IMG/VR virus record: IMGVR_UViG_3300037067_018912
Coordinates: 96,001-160,000 of that record
Strand: one strand, 5' to 3'
Source: a virus
Taxonomy: Duplodnaviria; Caudoviricetes
DNA length: 64,000 nt
The translations under genes were made by a program, and so were the position numbers. Shown piece by piece: positions 5,962 to 63,926 of this stretch. The notes beneath the pieces were generated by a model. The model saw only the letters and a list, made by a program, of their open reading frames with translations. It was not told the DNA's origin and made no database searches. Within the stretch, counting starts at the first letter, position 1. Each line of letters begins with the position of its first letter.

Positions 5962-8900
5962 TCAAATTAATTTTTGAATTTCCTCCTTAATGGTATTCAA
6001 AAGTTTGGATTCCGTCAACGCCAAATTACCCTTATCAGCAAAATAAATATTGAATCTCACATTTTCGGGAATCTGATTTTTGATAGCATTATACGCCTCT
6101 AATTCAACATCCCGGTCTTCATAGACATTGATTTCTTGGATATCTGGAAATTCTTTCAAATAATTCAAGACTTTCTGCCCCTTGTCGAGATCGTCGTCCC
6201 CATTTTTCATATCAAGCCTATCAACATGAACACCACCCCTTTTCAATATCTCTTCAACTTGAGGGCGCAACTTCTCGATCCTCGACGTTAGAATGAGGAC
6301 ATATGTACCCGGTGTCGACTTCTCCTTTTGATATTGGTTGTAGATACCGGGAAATGGTTTGATATCAAAAATATCCAAATCCAAACTTTCAGGTTTACTC
6401 CACCATCCGATATGAGGGTATTTCTCACCCGTTTTTTCAGTCCATTCTTGCTTCCCGACCTCTGGATGTGGTGAATTCATCAACGTACCATCGAAATCAA
6501 ATATTGCAAGCCTTTTCACCCCCCTTGGTGTGTTCTGTGGGGTTTCAATCAGTTGGTTCTCAACTTCCTCAATCTTCCCCGTTACTTTAAATCGAAATCC
6601 AAGTGGTTTCCAATCCGTCAATTCTTTGGACATGGCTGGTTTTCCACCCGCTTCTTTATTGATCGCCAATGTTATATGAGGTTTTGTACTTTCGCTCGGA
6701 TACCCGGTAACACCAACAGCCATCACCAAATCATTCAATGCATAATCGACAATATTGAGTGTGATTGTTTTACTCCCTTTCATATCCAAATATTCTTTCG
6801 AATTGGGATCAAGTTCATCGAGCCTTATTGTCATGTGATGTGCAACAACCTCCCATCCTTCGGGGATCATGGCCTTGAAAACTTTCAATAACTGTTTTCT
6901 CGATTCCTTGTCAAGTATCACCCCGGTGTATGAAACCCTTTTCATTGGAGGTCTCTCTTCAACACCTTCATTCAGGACCTCCCTATCAGTCAACATCCAA
7001 CGTAATTCGTTCTTTAATCTTTCATCATTTACCAAATCGGGGAACTCGTCTTCCAAAAATCTCAACACAGATTCTTTTGACGGATCGTGAAACCTACCCC
7101 CGGCGTTCCATTGGTCGTATTTGTCGATGAATTGATCAAGATTCAACGATTTCACCCCTTCTTGAATATCGGCGATGTCTCTCTTAACATCAACACCTTT
7201 GTTCTGCTGTGCGAATTTCATCAATTCCTGCTTGTCGTTTCTTAATTTATCGGCATATATTTTCAAAAGTATGCTTTTAAGCATATCGCCAATCTCGCTG
7301 CCTTTAAATCCCAATGTCATTAAATCATTTCCGTTCACAGTCAATTCGCCAAGAGTCTTCGGGTATTTTCCCTGCACCAACTCTCGTGCTGCATTCTCGA
7401 TATTTTCGGGCAATATCGTACTTTGAAAAGTCTGTGGGGACAAGACGTACACATTATGAGCAATCGCTCTCGCCTTGACAGGATTGGATTCCTGCGAACC
7501 ATTGTAGGCGGTGTCAAGTGCCTTAATCTCCTTGTATGTGTTGATGTCGCCTCTCAGATTATTTTTGTAATATCCTGCAGGGTTCGGATTGAGGTGGATT
7601 AATAGAAATATAAACTCACCCATCGTCTTCACATCCTCGAAAGGACTCCTATCAATTGTTGATTGTTTAATGTCAAACCCAAAAATATTTTGGAAGAGTC
7701 CTGTATTTTTCAATAATTGCGCACCCATACGCTTATTGCCTTTTTTGACAATCTTATCGAATTCAATAAGAACCCTTTCAGCCGGAATTTCTTTTATTCT
7801 ACCTGCATTGGTTTGGATCATTTTCATCGTTTCTGGCTCAATTGTGAACCCAAAACGTGCTGCAAATTGAACCGCACGAAGCATTCTCAACGGATCATCA
7901 CTGAACGCCTTGGGATTGACGATGCGGATTATCTTGTTTTTTAAATCCTCCCGTCCGCCATAAGGATCGACTATATTACCCTCACTGTCTTTTGCAATAG
8001 AGTTGATAGTGAAATCCCTTCGTTCCAAATCCTTTTCGATTGGCAAGGCATGATCCGAAGTCACGCTGAATCCATGATAGCCGCCTTCTCCCGTCGGTGT
8101 TTCAGTTCTTGGTATAGCGACATCGACCTCCTCGCCACCTCTCGGTTTGAATTTCAATATACCGAAAGATTTTCCAACGGCGTTAACCACACCGTACTTT
8201 GAAAGGATTTTTTCAAGTTCATCGAAGGGAATTCCCGTAACAAGAATATCCAAATCCTTACTTTCTTTGCCAAGGAATTCATCCCGGACAGCACCACCGA
8301 CAGAATATATCTTTCCACCCACCGCTTCAACGTCATTTTTGAACGGCAGGTCAGTCAATGACGTCGACACCGCCTCGTTCAACGATTTTGGCAATCTGTA
8401 CATTGATTCAGATGTTTGATAATCAGCGTGAGTTCCCTTGTTGGGAACAAATCCATACGATTTATACCATTTCTTCAATCTCTCTTTGCTTGCACCCCAA
8501 ACATTATCCGGTGTTAATGTTAATATTTTATTGTTTTTGTCGGCGAAATCAATCAAGAGTCTCATCGCTTTATCGGCGAATCCACGTCCCCTAAATTCCC
8601 TGTGGATGATGATTTTATTTAAAGTAAGGTATTGGTTCTTCCTATCGGTGAGTTCCATCTCACCCACAATTTCACCGTCGTTAATAATATTATGTACGTT
8701 CCATCCACCCCCGGTGCTACTTGCAGGCAAATTTACGGTTAGTTCCTCTTGTACCCCACCATTTTCATTCACGGCATACGCTAATTGAGGTAATTCAATC
8801 ACTCCATACCGTCTGTTGAGATATTTTAGAATAGATTCGTCCGTATAATCCAATAATTTCCCGATCTCATACCCTTCTTCCGGTGTCATGTCTGCCGTAT

Positions 8901-59785: not shown

Positions 59786-60886
59786 TTACATAGCGAACCT
59801 TTGCTGCCTACGAGCCTTGTTCCTGAGTTCATTCACTTCACGGAGTGCGTTCGGATCGAATCTCTCTCTCTTAACCACACTCACGACATGGTTGAACTCA
59901 TTCTCGGTAATGACCTGACCGATGTACCCCTCGGTTTTGAGGATGTACGACTTCGGTGCTTTACTCGCCGAGGAAGGATTTCCTTCCGCATCAAGGGTCG
60001 CATCGAAGGTCAGTTCGAGCAGTTCTTGGATTTTTTCCTGAACGCTCGCTGTCATCTTCTGCTTCGTCCTTTTCAGAGCGGCCTCAAGCAGGTCTACAAT
60101 GTTGTCACGGTAGTCCTTCTTAATTTCCTCGTATGACTGCGAGAAGTTGTTCATCGTGGACTTATTCTTCAATTCGCTGATTATTGCAAGCGAACCGTAG
60201 CAGTCACGGATCATCAAATCCCACACCTGTTCGGCGTATGTGAAGGACGGGAACTTGTCGATTGCGACGATTTCACCGTCGATCAGCACGACTATACCGA
60301 TCAGATTCTTTGGACGTTCAAAGTGTGCAATGAACTGTTCAAGTTTCTTGTCATACTTATCGAAGTAGACATTAAGATACCTTCCTGCACCGGAATTAGT
60401 ATCATGGCCAAGTTTCTCAATCGCCGGATAAATCCTGCCAAGATTATGCGGTTGGCCGACAGTGTCGAAAACCATTTCACGCATTGTTACAGGAAGCATA
60501 CGGAACTCCTGAGTACCCCTGAACGTACCACCCTGCGAACCCTGAACGCAACCTGCGTCATTGAAGGTCACGCTCGACTTTTGAGCCATGTAACCCGCCT
60601 TGGTCATACCGTGGTTCTGCGCCGACTGCTTAGTTATAACAGCCATTTGCGTGGGCACAATAATCTCCTTGTCCTCCTTGTTAGTGAAGCCAATTTGACC
60701 ATAGTTGTTGTTACCCGCAACAAGTGCAGTCATGGGATTTCCAAAACGTTCGTCCATTGAATACTCCTTATCGGTCGTCAAACAGACGATTTGCATGTTC
60801 AAAATCGATTGAACTATGATGTTGCCGTCAGCGTCCTTGACGGGACGGCATCCTTTCAGCAATTCTACGAATTCTCTCGTGTTCAT
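59786..60886 (-). CDS. ARPP-1/DUF6569-like protein
   Basis: TNKEDKEIIVP...QNH...AGCVQ and FE....IGIVVLIDGEIVAIDKFPS......W..MIRDCYG resemble the family pattern (recalled, not searched). Confidence 0.55.
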   Translation of the reverse strand: MNTREFVELLKGCRPVKDADGNIIVQSILNMQIVCLTTDKEYSMDERFGNPMTALVAGNNNYGQIGFTNKEDKEIIVPTQMAVITKQSAQNHGMTKAGYMAQKSSVTFNDAGCVQGSQGGTFRGTQEFRMLPVTMREMVFDTVGQPHNLGRIYPAIEKLGHDTNSGAGRYLNVYFDKYDKKLEQFIAHFERPKNLIGIVVLIDGEIVAIDKFPSFTYAEQVWDLMIRDCYGSLAIISELKNKSTMNNFSQSYEEIKKDYRDNIVDLLEAALKRTKQKMTASVQEKIQELLELTFDATLDAEGNPSSASKAPKSYILKTEGYIGQVITENEFNHVVSVVKRERFDPNALREVNELRNKARRQQRFAM

Positions 60887-60897
60887 AACCGTAATTA

Positions 60898-62526
60898 TTA
60901 AGCGTTTACACTAATTTTCTTCAACCTCTTGACGGGTGCTGCTTCAAGAACAGCCACCTGATTTTCAAGCCACCTCTTGGTATCGATTTCAAGCAACCTT
61001 GCGTTGATCTGTGGTTGCAGTGCGACCGGGTTGTTTATCGCCATTGTGACGACTCCAGGACCCAACTTCCTCACATTCGCACCCATTTCAGCACTGACTA
61101 TCGGCGAAATTTGGAACACCGGAATGTCCCTGCCGCTTTCAGCCTTCCAAATCGAGATGACCTCGTTGGTCATGCCGTCATAAGCATTTTCATACCCGTC
61201 AGTCAAGATAAACATCGCATCAAACGGCTTCGAAGGATTCTCCTTCTTTAACAATTCGATGAACGAAGTTGCAAGATCGGTGACCTCATCCTTGGTTCTT
61301 ACAACGATGCTTGAATTCGCAGACCTTGCAAGAACTTTCGACGTAAAGTCGGCAATCGCCCTCGGCGTGTTCTTGGATTCTTGCTTGTGACCCGTCATCG
61401 AGTTGCTCTCGTCGAGCACAACACCGATGTTTTGATAGAAGAACCCTGTGATCTTCTTGCTTTCGGCAAGTTTATCAATCGCCACACCGATTTCACGAGT
61501 GAAACCGTTTTCATACCCCGTCTTGTACAGAGCAAGGAAATCGGTTGCCTTTTCGTAATCAACCGTCTTTTCAACACCCAACTTAGCCGTCGACTTCGTC
61601 TGACGGACTTGCTGGTTGACAGACGTCACTTCGGTAGACTTCCTGATCATTGCCTTGGTCGCCTCCCTTTGGAGTTTGGTCGCCCACATAGAATGATACT
61701 GCGGATGCCTTATGTTCGAGATCAAACCCAAAAGAACTTCTTCCGGGACGGTCTTGACACCTGTAATGTCACGCCTTGCCTTTTCGTATTCACTCAACAG
61801 CGGGAATTCGACTGCACCATAATCAACACCATCATTCCTTTTCATAATAAAGAGGAAGAGTTTGAACACCTTTATTGCTTCGATGTTGGTGTATCTCAAG
61901 ATGTGTTCGTTGACAATCTTTGCTTCCTTCTCGGTGCTTATGCCGGAAGGGTACGTCAACTGCTTGCGTGCGATAGTGACCAATATGGAGGCAGTTTTTC
62001 CACCATACACGTGTCTCAACGCCTTGGCAATCTTGTTACGGTACTTCATAGCATAGAATTCAAGGTTGTCCTGACCCCAAATGTACCCAAGCATGATCTT
62101 CCTCGACCTGTCGTTGTTCACCTTTGCATCTTTCAACGCAACGAACAAACGGAGGATATACGGAAGACCGTTCTCACCGAGGTTATTCAGGGCGCAAAGA
62201 ACCGCCTTGTCGCTCAATCCATTGTCGTACCAATCGATCGGGTTGACAATATGGTTCGCACCGCCCCGTAAAGTGTTTTTAAACTCATTGAGCAACACTT
62301 CGGAGATGAATTGACCTGTAGCACCCTTTTGGTTTGCCACGATCAATGGGAGTTCCTTTGAAAGAGTATACATTTTCTTTATCTGATCCTGTACGGCCTT
62401 CAATTGTTCGTCCTTCTTGTGGTAGTAAGTTGCACTACCCTTCGCAGCACTTGCAATAGTCAATCCTTCAATCAACGATTGTCTGATCGTGCCGAGCGTC
62501 TTTTGTGTCAATACCAAATCTTTCAT
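60898..62526 (-). CDS. 542-aa protein with helical N-terminal region and C-terminal VWA domain (Ro60/TROVE-like architecture)
   Basis: MIDAS VVLDESNSM, TDLA, FILTDGYEN in the last ~180 aa; size and layout match Ro60. The VWA call is firm; TROVE homology is inferred. Confidence 0.6.
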   Translation of the reverse strand: MKDLVLTQKTLGTIRQSLIEGLTIASAAKGSATYYHKKDEQLKAVQDQIKKMYTLSKELPLIVANQKGATGQFISEVLLNEFKNTLRGGANHIVNPIDWYDNGLSDKAVLCALNNLGENGLPYILRLFVALKDAKVNNDRSRKIMLGYIWGQDNLEFYAMKYRNKIAKALRHVYGGKTASILVTIARKQLTYPSGISTEKEAKIVNEHILRYTNIEAIKVFKLFLFIMKRNDGVDYGAVEFPLLSEYEKARRDITGVKTVPEEVLLGLISNIRHPQYHSMWATKLQREATKAMIRKSTEVTSVNQQVRQTKSTAKLGVEKTVDYEKATDFLALYKTGYENGFTREIGVAIDKLAESKKITGFFYQNIGVVLDESNSMTGHKQESKNTPRAIADFTSKVLARSANSSIVVRTKDEVTDLATSFIELLKKENPSKPFDAMFILTDGYENAYDGMTNEVISIWKAESGRDIPVFQISPIVSAEMGANVRKLGPGVVTMAINNPVALQPQINARLLEIDTKRWLENQVAVLEAAPVKRLKKISVNA

Positions 62527-62703: not shown

Positions 62704-62806
62704 TAAGAAGAAGTGCGGTTGTATTGTCCTGTAAGTTTGCGCCCCCTACTCGAAAGCGGGAACGTTTCATGTTTCAATCTACTGAAAACACAGCCAGTTC
62801 TTCCCT
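62704..62806 (-). ncRNA. Module RNA A (stand-alone, with GC-rich hairpin insert)
   Basis: GGGAAG-AACU-GGCUGUGUUUU-CAGUA...GACAAUACAACC-GCA-CUUCUUCUU; the ends pair and N11 pairs with the distal strand. Confidence 0.7.
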
Positions 62807-63000
62807 ATTTTTTGTTTTTTGAAAAAATACAGCACTTCTGCCGTTAAAAACCATTCTTGACCATCAAATGTTAGGCGACGTGCCCCGTTTTTTACTAAAA
62901 ACTCTGACGCCGACAACCAAAAAATTCAAGCGGTGGGGTTTGCTTGTTTGACTTAAATTATAAATCCATTCGTTTTACCCATTTACCGCTTTTATAAAAA

Positions 63001-63141
63001 GGGGAACAGTTTGAAAGTAATTTTTGTTGTATTTGCAAGTTTACGAAACTCGTGCCTTAACCAACTTGGCTATTCGTCCAATTTTGGCGGACAAAGATGG
63101 AGTCGAACCATCGTTTTACTGGAATCACTTTCAGTTTTCCC
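63001..63141 (-). ncRNA. Module RNA B: circularly permuted tRNA-like RNA (T arm, closed acceptor stem, D arm, anticodon arm CGU) inside the module helix
   Basis: GAUGG-UUCGACU-CCAUC / UUUGUCC-GCCAAAAUU-GGACGAA / UA-GCC-AAGUUGGUUAA-GGC / CGAGU-UUCGUAA-ACUUG, flanked by an 11-bp UGAAAGUGAUU:AAUUACUUUCA helix. Confidence 0.85.
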
Positions 63142-63147
63142 ATTTTG

Positions 63148-63281
63148 AGGGGAGAGCCGGGATCGAACCGACAATCAATTGTTTAATAGACAATTTGCTT
63201 TACCTTTACTGGAAACACCATTAGTTCTCCTGTTGAGGAGCAATGAGATAGTATTTTTCGTTTTTGATTTGCTATCTCCCC
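63148..63281 (-). ncRNA. Module RNA C: tRNA-like RNA (anticodon AUU) with ~60-nt module inserted in the D-loop
   Basis: Acceptor GGGGAGA:UCUCCCC; AUUGU-CUAUUAA-ACAAU; GUCGG-UUCGAUC-CCGGC. The insert carries AACU-N11-CAGUA. Confidence 0.8.
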
Positions 63282-63315
63282 TTGTAATCAATAAAAAAAG
63301 AACTCTTAAAAAATC

Positions 63316-63392
63316 AGAAGAAATTTGTTGGTTTTTGTTTTGTAGATATTGAATTTGCCTCTCAATTTACTGAAAAAACCATCAGTTCTTCC
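63316..63392 (-). ncRNA. Module RNA D (minimal stand-alone form)
   Basis: GGAAG-AACU-GAUGGUUUUUU-CAGUA, short AUUGAG:UUCAAU hairpin, then AAAAACCAACA-AAU-UUCUUC. Confidence 0.7.
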
Positions 63393-63493
63393 TCAATGCC
63401 GATATTGAATGTGGTGTCGGCCTAATTCGGCCTCGATCTTACACTGTCTATCATCAGAACCACTAAACCACTCTCATGATCTCAATATACTTG

Positions 63494-63567
63494 TAGCGGG
63501 AGAGGGATTTGAACCCTCGAACTCTTGGTTATGAGCCAAGCGAGATGCCGGACTTCTCCACCCCGCA
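63494..63567 (-). tRNA. tRNA-Met(CAU), initiator-like 1:72 mismatch, CCA not encoded
   Basis: UGCGGGG UG GAGA-AGUCCGGCA-UCUC G CUUGG-CUCAUAA-CCAAG AGUUC GAGGG-UUCAAAU-CCCUC UCCCGCU A. Confidence 0.9.
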
Positions 63568-63644
63568 ATGTGAAACGTTGATTCGGGTTCAACGTTTAAA
63601 ACCTTTACAAATTCCTTACACAAGGTAAAGAACTAAAATTTAAA

Positions 63645-63768
63645 AAGGATAGTTTGTTTGTTGTCTTGTTTTTAACAAAATCGGACTTGAACCGACAACG
63701 TACTGCTCTGAAGGCAATTCCTCTTCCAATTGAGGTATTTGTTTACTGAAACAACACTCAGTTTCCTT
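63645..63768 (-). ncRNA. Module RNA F: complete tRNA-like body (63672-63744, anticodon UCA) extended at its acceptor ends by the module
   Basis: AAACAAA UA CCUC-AAUUGGAA-GAGG A AUUGC-CUUCAGA-GCAGU ACGUU GUCGG-UUCAAGU-CCGAU UUUGUUA, inside AAGGA-AACU-N11-CAGU...AGACAACA..UCCUU. Confidence 0.8.
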
Positions 63769-63774
63769 TTTTTG

Positions 63775-63907
63775 TGGGGAGAGTCGGATTTGAACCAACA
63801 ATCAATTGTTTTACGGACAATTTGCTTTACCTATTACTGTAAACACTAATAGTTCTCCTGTTAAGGAGTATGAGATAGTATTTTCGTTTTGTTTTTGCTA
63901 TCTCCCC
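63775..63907 (-). ncRNA. Module RNA G: paralogue of RNA C (anticodon loop CCGUAAA), module in D-loop
   Basis: Diverged direct repeat of 63148-63281 with stems preserved and the anticodon changed to GUA. Confidence 0.8.
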
Positions 63908-63926
63908 ATGTAAAATTCAAAATTTA

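What the first reader, a model, noticed from the sequence alone, without database searches (positions are those of the whole stretch)
63001..63141. Circularly permuted tRNA that keeps both its anticodon arm and an internal CCA
The order is T arm, acceptor 3' strand, G-CCA-AAAUU linker, acceptor 5' strand, D arm, anticodon arm (CGU at 63043-63045), with the module replacing the variable arm. YrlA-type RNAs lose the anticodon arm; this one has all four arms. CCA (63085-63087) sits correctly after a discriminator base. Cutting the 5-nt linker, as in two-piece tmRNA maturation, would give a two-piece, potentially chargeable tRNA with a giant variable arm.
Basis: partly seen in the sequence, partly recalled or inferred. 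Interest (0 to 1): 0.85.

Follow-up and report, generated by a model that had tools for sequence, protein, structure and literature searches.

The report
Rewired tRNA look-alike beside phage Ro60-like gene
A giant phage encodes a 140-base RNA that is a complete tRNA shape with its ends moved to the variable-arm position and its acceptor end sealed by a loop holding CCA; it most likely partners the neighbouring Ro60-like protein as a tRNA mimic and does not decode codons.

Summary
On the minus strand (63141 to 63002) lie a conserved two-helix handle, T arm, 7-bp acceptor hairpin closed by G-CCA-AAAUU, D arm and a full anticodon arm (CGU). Homologues sit upstream of the same protein gene in 71 of 73 related phage contigs. 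In 51 distinct sequences 98% of cells pair, 25 of 35 pairs show double changes, and the 15:48 tertiary pair covaries. ARAGORN calls all 51 tRNAs once the order is restored in silico.

It is not a decoding tRNA. The anticodon loop is hypervariable (15 different 'anticodons', U33 in only 71%) and acceptor sequences follow no identity rules.

The adjacent 542-aa protein has no Pfam match but folds like Ro60 (Z 18). An ARPP-like gene always follows it. The best reading is a new topology of Y-RNA-type tRNA mimic, with the handle at the variable-arm position rather than the anticodon stem as in YrlA.

The two-piece idea remains open. Two thirds of the family keep NCCA, with U at -1 and G at +1 (an RNase P-like site), and M. 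smegmatis YrlA is a published precedent. One third seal the stem with a 5-nt loop.

The scan has noted similar phage Ro60-like/tRNA-mimic RNAs on other DNA.

The parts
63137..63141 (-). Handle helix P1, 5' strand (GGGAA); probable 5' end of the RNA
   Evidence: Pairs with 63002-63006. 99.6% paired in 50 distinct sequences and nearly invariant.
63123..63136 (-). Handle internal loop (AACU) and helix P2 5' strand (10 nt)
   Evidence: P2 pairs with 63013-63022; 6 of 10 pairs change on both sides. It is part of the AACU-N11-CAGUA motif, found 6 times in this 1.1-kb array and twice in the rest of the genome.
63113..63122 (-). Junction CCAGUAAAAC: conserved CAGUAA, ending in C48 (the Levitt partner of G15)
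   Evidence: CAGUAA is nearly invariant. 15:48 covaries G:C 45 / A:U 6. ACAGUAA/ACAGAA also occurs in the RNAs upstream of distant homologues.
63096..63112 (-). T arm (5-bp stem, loop UUCGACU)
   Evidence: G53, T54, T55, C56, A58 and C61 are invariant; 3 of 5 stem pairs covary.
63089..63095 (-). Acceptor stem, 3' strand
   Evidence: All 7 pairs change on both sides across the family; 98% paired.
63080..63088 (-). Loop sealing the acceptor stem: G73, CCA (63087-63085), linker AAAUU
   Evidence: NCCA in 34 of 51. U at -1 in 32 of those 34. Linker 3-6 or 14-18 nt. Only 4 of the phage's 60 tRNA genes encode N73-CCA.
63073..63079 (-). Acceptor stem, 5' strand (GGACGAA)
   Evidence: Covaries with 63089-63095. 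G at +1 in 40 of 51.
63053..63072 (-). U8, A9, D arm (3-bp stem, loop with G18 G19), A26
   Evidence: U8, G10, A14, A21 and C25 are invariant; G18 and G19 are at least 90% conserved. The 11:24 pair is C:G in 25 and A:U in 24.
63036..63052 (-). Anticodon arm: 5-bp stem, 7-nt loop UUCGUAA (CGU at 63045-63043)
   Evidence: All 5 stem pairs covary. The loop is always 7 nt but has 26 different sequences, and U33 is present in 36 of 51.
63023..63035 (-). A-rich single-stranded link from the anticodon stem to the handle
   Evidence: 9-16 nt long, variable and A-rich in all members.
63002..63022 (-). Handle P2 3' strand, internal loop, P1 3' strand; probable 3' end
   Evidence: Pairs with 63123-63141. 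Conservation stops outside P1.
60898..62526 (-). 542-aa Ro60-like protein (helical ring plus vWA/MIDAS), the presumed protein partner
   Evidence: AF2 model pLDDT 93. The top 12 Foldseek hits are all Ro60. VIA Z 18.0, rmsd 4.4 A over 404 residues to 1yvr; Z 14.8 to Thermus phage phiLo Ro60. No Pfam, PHROG or PDB sequence match. The RNA lies upstream of this gene in 71 of 73 related contigs.
59786..60886 (-). 366-aa ARPP-1-like protein, 11 nt downstream of the Ro60-like gene
   Evidence: PF20208, E 3.5e-11. A homologue lies directly downstream in 81 of 81 loci that hold that DNA. Invariant C113, Q115 and H92.
62706..63915 (-). Array of handle-bearing RNAs that contains this element
   Evidence: The array also holds two tRNA-like RNAs with the handle in the D loop (63915-63773, 63281-63150), a UCA tRNA inside a handle (63768-63645), tRNA-Met (63567-63493), a minimal handle RNA (63392-63316) and one more (62804-62706). 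Sources: motif count, R1 hits, folds, tRNAs.

Best explanation
It is a small non-coding RNA of the Y-RNA type. A conserved two-helix handle (P1, a 4x6 internal loop, P2, then CAGUAA) most likely binds the Ro60-like ring protein encoded just downstream. The handle carries a complete tRNA-shaped body as its outward-facing domain.

The body is a circular permutation of a tRNA, with the ends at the variable-arm position. This leaves the elbow, the 12-bp acceptor/T stack, the NCCA region and the anticodon arm all exposed. The body mimics tRNA shape rather than any one tRNA identity. It probably recruits, occupies or reports to tRNA-handling factors (RNase P, the CCA-adding enzyme, nucleases or other tRNA binders) on behalf of the Ro60-like/ARPP-like pair, as Y RNAs tether Ro60 to effectors.

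Shown here: the fold, its conservation, its tRNA geometry, its linkage to the two genes, and the Ro60-like fold of the protein. Inferred: binding to the protein, the effector role, and any cleavage at the linker.
For: Fold and covariation, including the tertiary 15:48 pair. All 51 sequences are called tRNA after in-silico re-permutation.

The handle is the most conserved part (entropy 0.06-0.38 bits), while the acceptor strands (1.17) and the anticodon loop (1.09) are the most variable. The same handle motif occurs on five other RNAs of the array.

The RNA lies upstream of the Ro60-like gene in 71 of 73 contigs. The same architecture sits beside proteins only 27-31% identical (L089, L090, L091).

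The protein is Ro60-like by structure. Published Ro60 systems place their Y RNAs directly upstream of the gene, and some of those Y RNAs mimic tRNA (PMC4201824; phiLo phage, PMC12135203). The anticodon loop and acceptor follow no decoding or identity rule.
Against: No transcript, binding or processing datum exists. The protein does not match Pfam TROVE. The handle lacks the published Rsr-binding motif GNCGAAN0-1G. The RNA scores only 18.3 bits against Rfam YrlA, whose gathering score is 69, so the Ro60/Y-RNA analogy rests on fold and gene order. NCCA, U(-1) and G(+1) are more conserved than a mere sealing loop requires, which hints at processing or CCA-dependent recognition that this account leaves open.
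Confidence: 0.65

Rival explanations
1. Two-piece RNA. RNase P (the host's, or a phage-encoded RNase P-like RNA) cuts between U(-1) and G(+1). The AAAUU tail is trimmed back to the encoded CCA. The result is a 57-nt and a 79-nt piece held together by the acceptor stem, the handle and tertiary contacts, with a free CCA end that could be charged or otherwise modified. This can coexist with the best explanation.
For: The family has a 7-bp acceptor stem plus a 5-bp T stem in 51/51, NCCA in 34/51, U(-1) in 32/34 and G(+1) in 40/51. By established RNase P enzymology (my knowledge) these are the substrate determinants of bacterial RNase P. M. smegmatis YrlA, the one YrlA with a 7-bp acceptor stem, is cut by M1 RNA in vitro and is found as two halves with CCA in vivo (PMC4201824). 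NCCA recurs in all three permuted modules of the distant locus L091. The phage encodes a PolyA_pol/CCA-adding-type domain. A sub-threshold RNase P-clan match lies elsewhere in the genome (26.2 bits, gathering score 84).
Against: 17 of 51 relatives lack NCCA, and 10 of them seal the stem with a 5-nt loop. The trait flips at least 8 times on the protein tree, so cleavage cannot be essential to the family. The phage's real tRNA genes mostly do not encode CCA (4 of 60). An encoded CCA therefore fits an uncut mimic at least as well, since only an uncut loop must carry its own CCA. Nothing supports charging: acceptor and discriminator vary freely.
Confidence: 0.35
2. A genuine permuted tRNA gene, as in the red alga Cyanidioschyzon merolae (my knowledge). 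The transcript would be circularised and then opened at the acceptor end to give an ordinary decoding tRNA-Thr(CGU).
For: The 3' half precedes the 5' half with a CCA-containing junction. The window copy and its closest relative L001 both carry Thr-type loops (CGU, UGU) with U33 and A37. The phage encodes RtcB.
Against: The termini form a 5-bp helix, a 4x6 internal loop and a 10-bp helix, not a bulge-helix-bulge splice motif. This handle is highly conserved and shared with RNAs that are not tRNAs. Orthologues carry 15 different 'anticodons', and 15 of 51 lack U33. The phage already has normal Thr(CGU), Thr(UGU) and Thr(GGU) genes, all with U73 and not G73.
Confidence: 0.02
3. A decoy or sponge that acts without the Ro60-like protein. 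The tRNA body would soak up a host tRNA-targeting defence nuclease or toxin, with the fast-changing acceptor stem and anticodon loop tracking different hosts.
For: The parts that give tRNAs their identity are the hypervariable parts. L004 and L005 have identical Ro60-like proteins and 98.4% identical DNA over 4.45 kb, yet 18 of their 70 differences fall in the 41-nt T-stem/acceptor patch.
Against: The same variability is expected if only pairing is constrained. A second cluster of differences lies in the ARPP-like gene, so ordinary mosaic recombination explains the patch. The strict linkage and the conserved handle argue for a protein-bound RNP.
Confidence: 0.12
4. Debris: the 3' half of one decayed tRNA gene followed by the 5' half of the next, with no function of its own.
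For: Dimeric tRNAs can imitate this order; Chen et al. warn of this (PMC4201824). The loop resembles this phage's usual tRNA trailer N73-C-AAAA.
Against: The two acceptor strands pair 7/7 and covary at all seven positions in 51 sequences. The whole unit is enclosed by a conserved handle and kept at one genomic position across proteins down to 27% identity.
Confidence: 0.01

Closest known systems
YrlA (Rfam RF02553), the tRNA-like Y RNA bound by bacterial Ro60/Rsr (Chen et al. 2014, PMC4201824; Wang et al. 2018, bioRxiv 10.1101/312249)
   Same: A small RNA encoded next to a Ro60-type protein gene. The order T arm, loop-sealed acceptor-like stem, D arm is the same. tRNA tertiary contacts are kept, and a terminal stem is presumed to bind the protein.
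   Different: In YrlA the protein-binding stem continues from the anticodon stem, so there is no anticodon loop. Here the handle leaves from the variable-arm position and a full 5-bp/7-nt anticodon arm is kept. The handle sequence differs (no GNCGAAN0-1G). The Rfam score is 18.3 against a cut-off of 69. The protein does not match Pfam TROVE.
Mycobacterium smegmatis YrlA (Chen et al. 2014, PMC4201824)
   Same: A 7-bp acceptor stem. That RNA is cleaved by RNase P in vitro and found in vivo as two Rsr-bound halves, one ending in CCA.
   Different: There CA is added after cleavage, whereas here GCCA is encoded. There is no anticodon arm in that RNA. Cleavage is untested here.
Deinococcus radiodurans Yrn1 (PMC4201824)
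   Same: A Y RNA modelled with T-like and D-like elements and an 'anticodon arm' with a 5-bp stem.
   Different: In Yrn1 the Ro-binding stem takes the acceptor position, the loop has 6 nt, and there is no acceptor hairpin or CCA.
Thermus phage phiLo Ro60 with Yrl1/Yrl2 (PMC12135203)
   Same: A phage-encoded Ro60 with its partner RNAs directly upstream of the gene. It is a structural neighbour of the protein here (Z 14.8).
   Different: Yrl1 and Yrl2 are stem-bulge-stem RNAs with a CGAA motif and are not described as tRNA-like.
Circularly permuted tRNA genes of Cyanidioschyzon merolae and other algae (my knowledge; not read here)
   Same: The 3' half lies upstream of the 5' half and is joined through the acceptor ends.
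   Different: Those mature through a bulge-helix-bulge splice and a circular intermediate into normal decoding tRNAs. Here the termini form a conserved protein-type handle and the anticodon is not conserved.
Two-piece (permuted) tmRNA (my knowledge)
   Same: A permuted gene whose product is two RNA pieces forming a chargeable tRNA-like domain.
   Different: tmRNA has no anticodon arm and carries a tag reading frame. ARAGORN finds a standard one-piece tmRNA elsewhere in this phage and nothing at this site.

Membership tests
tRNA (RF00005) | Four arms with canonical lengths and conserved core nucleotides (U8, A14, G18, G19, T54-C56, A58) and tertiary pairs | tested here: met
   Invariant or nearly invariant core positions. 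15:48 covaries. ARAGORN accepts 51 of 51 after re-permutation.
tRNA (RF00005) | Contiguous 5'-to-3' order with free acceptor ends; Rfam gathering score 29 bits | tested here: not met
   The order is permuted and the acceptor is sealed by a loop. The best Rfam alignment scores 24.8 bits and skips the T arm. ARAGORN finds nothing in native order.
tRNA (RF00005) | Anticodon loop fit for decoding (U33, stable anticodon, identity elements matching it) | tested here: not met
   15 different anticodon triplets and 26 loop sequences; U33 in 36 of 51. G73 here, against U73 in the phage's Thr tRNAs.
YrlA (RF02553) | Reaches the family's covariance-model score (69 bits) | tested here: not met
   18.3 bits, E 1.8, model positions 30-81 only.
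YrlA (RF02553) | Encoded next to a Ro60/Rsr orthologue | tested here: inconclusive
   The neighbour has the Ro60 fold over its whole length (Z 18.0). It has no Pfam TROVE match and no sequence match to solved Ro60 chains.
YrlA (RF02553) | Protein-binding stem at the anticodon-stem position with the GNCGAAN0-1G motif | tested here: not met
   The handle leaves from the variable region and an anticodon arm is present. The handle consensus GGGAAAAC(U/G)NAAAGUG lacks the motif.
YrlA (RF02553) | T arm, sealed acceptor-like stem and D arm in that order, with tRNA tertiary contacts | tested here: met
Permuted tRNA genes (C. merolae type) | Bulge-helix-bulge motif formed by the termini, for splicing and circularisation | tested here: not met
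   The termini form a 5-bp helix, a 4x6 internal loop and a 10-bp helix. This is a direct reading of the structure.
Permuted tRNA genes (C. merolae type) | Mature product is a normal-length decoding tRNA | not testable with these tools
   Needs RNA ends from infected cells.
Two-piece tmRNA | tRNA-like domain without an anticodon arm, plus a tag reading frame | tested here: not met
   An anticodon arm is present. ARAGORN reports no tmRNA here and a standard tmRNA at genome position 257755-258118.
Bacterial RNase P substrate | 12-bp acceptor/T stack, RCCA after the stem, U at -1, G at +1 | tested here: met
   All are present in the window copy. Family counts are 51/51, 34/51, 32/34 and 40/51. 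Actual cleavage is not testable here.

The most novel reading that the evidence does not exclude
RNase P opens the linker. The particle then carries a complete two-piece tRNA with a free, genome-encoded CCA end, held by its variable-arm handle on a Ro60-like/ARPP-like enzyme pair. That tethered acceptor end would be charged, or chemically worked on at its terminal ribose. This would make a protein-bound tRNA that acts as bait, sensor or substrate in the conflict over host and phage tRNAs.
Probability: 0.1. Interest if true: 0.85.

Novelty: new variant of a known kind. Interest (0 to 1): 0.6.

Why it matters
Y RNAs that imitate tRNA are known, but what their tRNA-like domains do is unknown. Published examples give up either the anticodon arm (YrlA) or the acceptor arm (Yrn1).

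This family keeps the whole tRNA, including an encoded CCA in an RNase P-like context, and hangs it from the variable-arm position. Every face that tRNA enzymes read therefore stays free.

It belongs to a conserved three-part module: an RNA array, a Ro60-like protein invisible to Pfam, and a predicted ribose-acting ARPP enzyme. The module is found in many 300-kb-class phages, with simpler RNAs in Planctomycetota, Myxococcota and Bacteroidota.

This gives a concrete, testable system for asking what tRNA mimicry by Ro-type particles is for. It also raises the question of whether phages with large tRNA sets use such particles in tRNA processing, repair or defence evasion.

Tried and rejected
- **Rfam at gathering thresholds:** found only the two ordinary tRNAs in the window. 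At permissive thresholds the element gave only sub-threshold tRNA, YrlA and tmRNA fragments.
- **BLAST of the array against GenBank phages:** matched only the tRNA-Met.
- **Sequence searches with the 542-aa protein:** Pfam, PHROGs, phmmer against PDB and a 69-sequence profile against PDB all gave nothing useful. Only the predicted structure identified it.
- **RNase P in the phage genome:** RF00010 gave no match at E <= 0.01. I treat a phage RNase P as unconfirmed.
- **Origin from a phage tRNA:** comparison of the re-permuted sequence with the phage's 60 tRNAs showed no close parent (best about 70% identity, the general tRNA background). I dropped the idea that it is a recent copy of the phage tRNA-Thr(CGU).
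- **Class II origin:** I considered a Ser/Leu/Tyr-type origin because of the D arm and the arm position. The window copy has G73, G1-C72, G2-C71, A3-U70 and C11-G24, which I recall as E. coli Ser identity elements. These are not conserved in the family, so I make no claim.
- **Promoters:** the sigma-70 promoter scan was at background level.
- **Complex prediction of the Ro60-like and ARPP-like proteins:** weak support only. Score 0.60, best of 3 controls 0.00; the runs agree in at least 83% of contacts; partner pLDDT is at least 83. The tool states that passes at or below 0.60 were reached by only 7 of 80 solved complexes and by both mismatched pairs that passed. I do not use it as evidence.
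- **Literature search for 'permuted tRNA' plus 'phage':** found nothing on this kind of RNA.

Full report
**Setting.** The window is bases 96001-160000 of a single 357,275-bp virus record with direct terminal repeats, rated complete. ARAGORN finds 60 tRNA genes and a tmRNA in it. It is therefore a jumbo phage with its own large tRNA set. The genes around the finding run on the minus strand, and the finding itself must also be read on that strand.

**The observation.** Read 63141 to 63002 on the minus strand, the elements come in this order:
- GGGAA (helix P1)
- AACU
- a 10-nt strand (helix P2)
- CCAGUAAAAC
- a T arm (GAUGG-UUCGACU-CCAUC)
- UUUGUCC (acceptor 3' strand)
- G, CCA, AAAUU
- GGACGAA (acceptor 5' strand)
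- U8 and A9
- a D arm with G18 and G19
- A26
- an anticodon arm (CGAGU-UUCGUAA-ACUUG)
- 13 A-rich bases
- the partner strands of P2 and P1

RNAfold finds the same structure unaided (-39.2 kcal/mol, z = -3.2, 1 of 200 shuffles as stable).

**Is it more than chance?** The protein gene just downstream has relatives in 73 IMG/VR contigs at 59-90% identity. nhmmer finds a homologue of the RNA upstream of that gene in 71 of them. That gives 51 distinct sequences.
- On a MAFFT alignment, my six-helix structure is paired in 98.2% of cells. 25 of 35 pairs change on both sides, including all seven acceptor pairs and all five anticodon-stem pairs.
- None of 500 shuffles reaches these values. Sliding the partners by 1-3 columns drops pairing to 38-55%.
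- The tertiary Levitt pair is G15:C48 in 45 sequences and A15:U48 in 6, with no mismatch.
- U8, G10, A14, A21, C25 and the T-loop core are invariant.
- As an independent test I restored the normal order in silico (5' acceptor strand to anticodon stem, five junction bases, T arm, 3' acceptor strand). ARAGORN called 51 of 51 a tRNA, against 0 of 51 in native order.

The permuted, four-armed tRNA is real.

**It does not decode.**
- The anticodon loop is always 7 nt on a 5-bp stem. It has 26 different sequences and 15 different middle triplets: CUU, GUU, AUU, UGA, UUA, AUG, CGU and others. U33 is present in only 36 of 51.
- Acceptor sequences and the discriminator (G in 19, A in 14 of the NCCA forms) do not follow the 'anticodon'.
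- The phage already has normal Thr(CGU), Thr(UGU) and Thr(GGU) genes, all with U73, whereas this RNA has G73.
- No phage tRNA is a close parent; the best identity is about 70%.
- By column entropy, the handle (0.06-0.38 bits), the T loop (0.23) and the D arm (0.49) are conserved. The acceptor strands (1.17) and the anticodon loop (1.09) are the freest parts.

Selection keeps tRNA geometry, not tRNA identity.

**The partner.** The 542-aa protein (60898-62526, minus strand) has no Pfam, PHROG or PDB sequence match, even with a 69-sequence profile.
- Its AlphaFold model is confident (pLDDT 93, pTM 0.90).
- The twelve best Foldseek hits in the PDB are all Ro60 proteins (frog, human, Deinococcus Rsr, Thermus phage phiLo; E down to 1e-6).
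- VIA-align gives Z 18.0 with rmsd 4.4 A over 404 residues, spanning residues 16-511. The next unrelated hits (Z about 10) cover only the C-terminal vWA domain. The DxSxS MIDAS residues are invariant.

It is thus a Ro60-shaped protein from a lineage that sequence models do not reach.

A 366-aa ARPP-1-like gene (PF20208) follows after 11 nt. A homologue is directly downstream in all 81 loci that contain that DNA, including those with only 27-31% identical proteins. ARPP was described as a probable enzyme acting on ribose moieties, with a conserved Cys and Gln (PMC9503650). C113 and Q115 are invariant here. A pairing with a Ro60-like protein is not among the neighbourhoods that paper lists.

**The handle is shared.** AACU-N11-CAGUA occurs six times on the minus strand within 62799-63854 and only twice in the other 356 kb, where about two per strand are expected by chance. 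A covariance model of the permuted RNA (R1) also picks up three other handle RNAs in the array through the handle alone. Two further tRNA-like RNAs carry a hairpin form of the handle in their D loop. The same protein-type module is therefore grafted onto tRNA bodies at different positions. This element is the variable-arm version.

**How far it reaches.**
- R1 finds full-length matches (71-74 bits) beside proteins only 27-31% identical in L089, L090 and L091. L091 has three permuted modules. These matches keep the same order, including the anticodon arm in most.
- Some closer relatives (L077-L079) instead carry normal-order tRNA bodies in the handle.
- Bacterial homologues of the protein occur in Pirellulaceae, Myxococcota, Saprospiraceae and others at 26-32% identity. 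The dozen upstream regions I folded show a T arm, a sealed 7-bp acceptor hairpin and a D arm near an ACAG(U/A)A motif. I saw no clear anticodon arm there, so they have the YrlA-like layout. I did not test that sample further.

**The CCA and the two-piece idea.** NCCA opens the sealing loop in 34 of 51 sequences. In those, the base before the 5' acceptor strand is U in 32 of 34, and the linker after CCA is 3-6 or 14-18 nt long. G(+1) occurs in 40 of 51. Together with the invariant 7+5-bp stack, these are the classical determinants of a bacterial RNase P substrate (established enzymology, my knowledge).

The phage's own tRNA genes rarely encode CCA (4 of 60). Their usual trailer is N73-C-AAAA, so the CCA here is not simply house style. 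NCCA also recurs in all three modules of the distant L091.

Chen et al. showed that M. smegmatis YrlA, the one YrlA with a 7-bp acceptor stem, is cut by M1 RNA in vitro. In vivo it exists as two Rsr-bound halves, one ending in CCA (PMC4201824).

Against it as a general rule:
- Ten relatives seal the stem with a 5-nt loop such as CAAUG, and seven more have ACAA, ACUA or similar.
- The trait changes at least eight times on the protein tree, even between sister phages.
- An encoded CCA is also what an uncut mimic would need, because only an uncut loop cannot receive CCA from the CCA-adding enzyme.

I put cleavage of the window copy at about one in three, and charging at well under one in ten.

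**Context that bears on processing.** The phage encodes a PolyA_pol/CCA-adding-type domain and RtcB. The standard RF00010 search found nothing. A permissive scan of that place gave a 26.2-bit RNase P-clan match against a gathering score of 84, with GAGGAA and ACAGAA core motifs aligned. This is suggestive and not confirmed.

**Fast turnover of the acceptor patch.** L004 and L005 have identical Ro60-like proteins and 98.4% identical DNA over 4.45 kb. Yet 18 of their 70 differences fall in the 41 nt that hold the T stem, the acceptor strands and the loop, with pairing kept. A second cluster lies in the ARPP-like gene. Mosaic recombination between phage lineages is therefore the plain explanation, although diversifying pressure on the tRNA 'identity' parts is not excluded.

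**Comparison with known systems.**
- The RNA works like a Y RNA of the YrlA kind (PMC4201824; 10.1101/312249) and like the phage phiLo Ro60/Yrl pair, which assembles with host PNPase (PMC12135203).
- It is not a member of Rfam YrlA. It scores 18.3 bits against 69, the stem is at a different position, and the GNCGAAN0-1G motif is absent.
- It is also not a C. merolae-type permuted tRNA gene (no bulge-helix-bulge motif, no stable anticodon) and not a two-piece tmRNA.
- Known tRNA-like Y RNAs put the protein stem at the anticodon position (YrlA) or the acceptor position (Yrn1). A variable-arm attachment that keeps both ends of the L is, as far as I could find, not described.

**Earlier notes of this scan.** The scan has noted tRNA-mimic RNAs on shared handles beside Ro60-like genes in other phages, and this array in this genome. 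I used those notes as leads only and re-derived what I cite.

**Verdict.** This is a real, conserved RNA and a new variant of a known kind. The decoding or charging reading is unlikely, and linker cleavage is open and easily testable.

Noticed in passing
genome G000 249000-282000 (outside the window), e.g. 276549-276633, 265074-265158, 274848-274933: Many of the phage's tRNAs for amino acids that normally have short variable loops (Thr, Lys, Asn, Trp, Gln, Cys) are 82-87 nt long and carry a stem-loop variable arm.
   Followed up: no
genome G000, all 60 tRNA genes: Only 4 of 60 tRNA genes encode N73-CCA. The usual 3' trailer is N73-C followed by an A run (ACAAAA, GCAAAA, UCAAAA), which suggests one common 3' processing and CCA-completion route.
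   Followed up: partly
window 7924-8310, minus strand: A PolyA_pol/CCA-adding-type nucleotidyltransferase domain (84 bits) lies inside an open frame reported as 1510 aa, far longer than a usual CCA-adding enzyme.
   Followed up: no
L159 408-606 = genome G000 279607-279805: A sub-threshold RNase P-clan match (RF00373, 26.2 bits, gathering score 84) with GAGGAA and ACAGAA core motifs aligned. RF00010 found nothing at E <= 0.01.
   Followed up: partly
window 59786-60886 and L001-L093: An ARPP-1-like gene (invariant C113, Q115, H92) follows the Ro60-like gene in 81 of 81 loci that hold the DNA, down to 27% identity. This pairing is not among the ARPP neighbourhoods listed in PMC9503650.
   Followed up: partly
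L004 1435-1475 and 5184-5379 versus L005: Two contigs 98.4% identical over 4.45 kb differ in two dense patches: the T-stem/acceptor hairpin of the permuted RNA (18 differences in 41 nt, pairing kept) and a 200-nt stretch of the ARPP-like gene.
   Followed up: partly
L098-L158 (genome contigs): The Ro60-like family also occurs in Pirellulaceae, Myxococcota, Saprospiraceae/Chitinophagales and others at 26-32% identity. A T arm, sealed acceptor and D arm RNA often lies just upstream. L097, labelled a Paceibacterota MAG, is a 362,763-bp contig of the same length as the phage contig of L028.
   Followed up: partly
L064, L029, L038, L057 acceptor loops: In the long-loop forms, the bases after the discriminator (CCAAU, CCAUU, CAAAUU, CUAAG) are complementary to the end of the linker plus G1 G2 (AUUGG, AAUGG, AAUUUG, CUUGG). 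This could be an alternative helix competing with the top of the acceptor stem. Read by eye.
   Followed up: no
window 63671-63745 and genome 282907-282981: The phage carries tRNAs with UCA and CUA anticodons. The UCA one sits inside a handle (R1 hit 63645-63768).
   Followed up: no
L077 3315-3437, L078 2332-2454 and 2658-2779: Relatives with 57-59% identical proteins carry normal-order tRNA bodies whose acceptor stem grows out of the CAGUAA end of the handle, followed by ACCA-like sequence.
   Followed up: no
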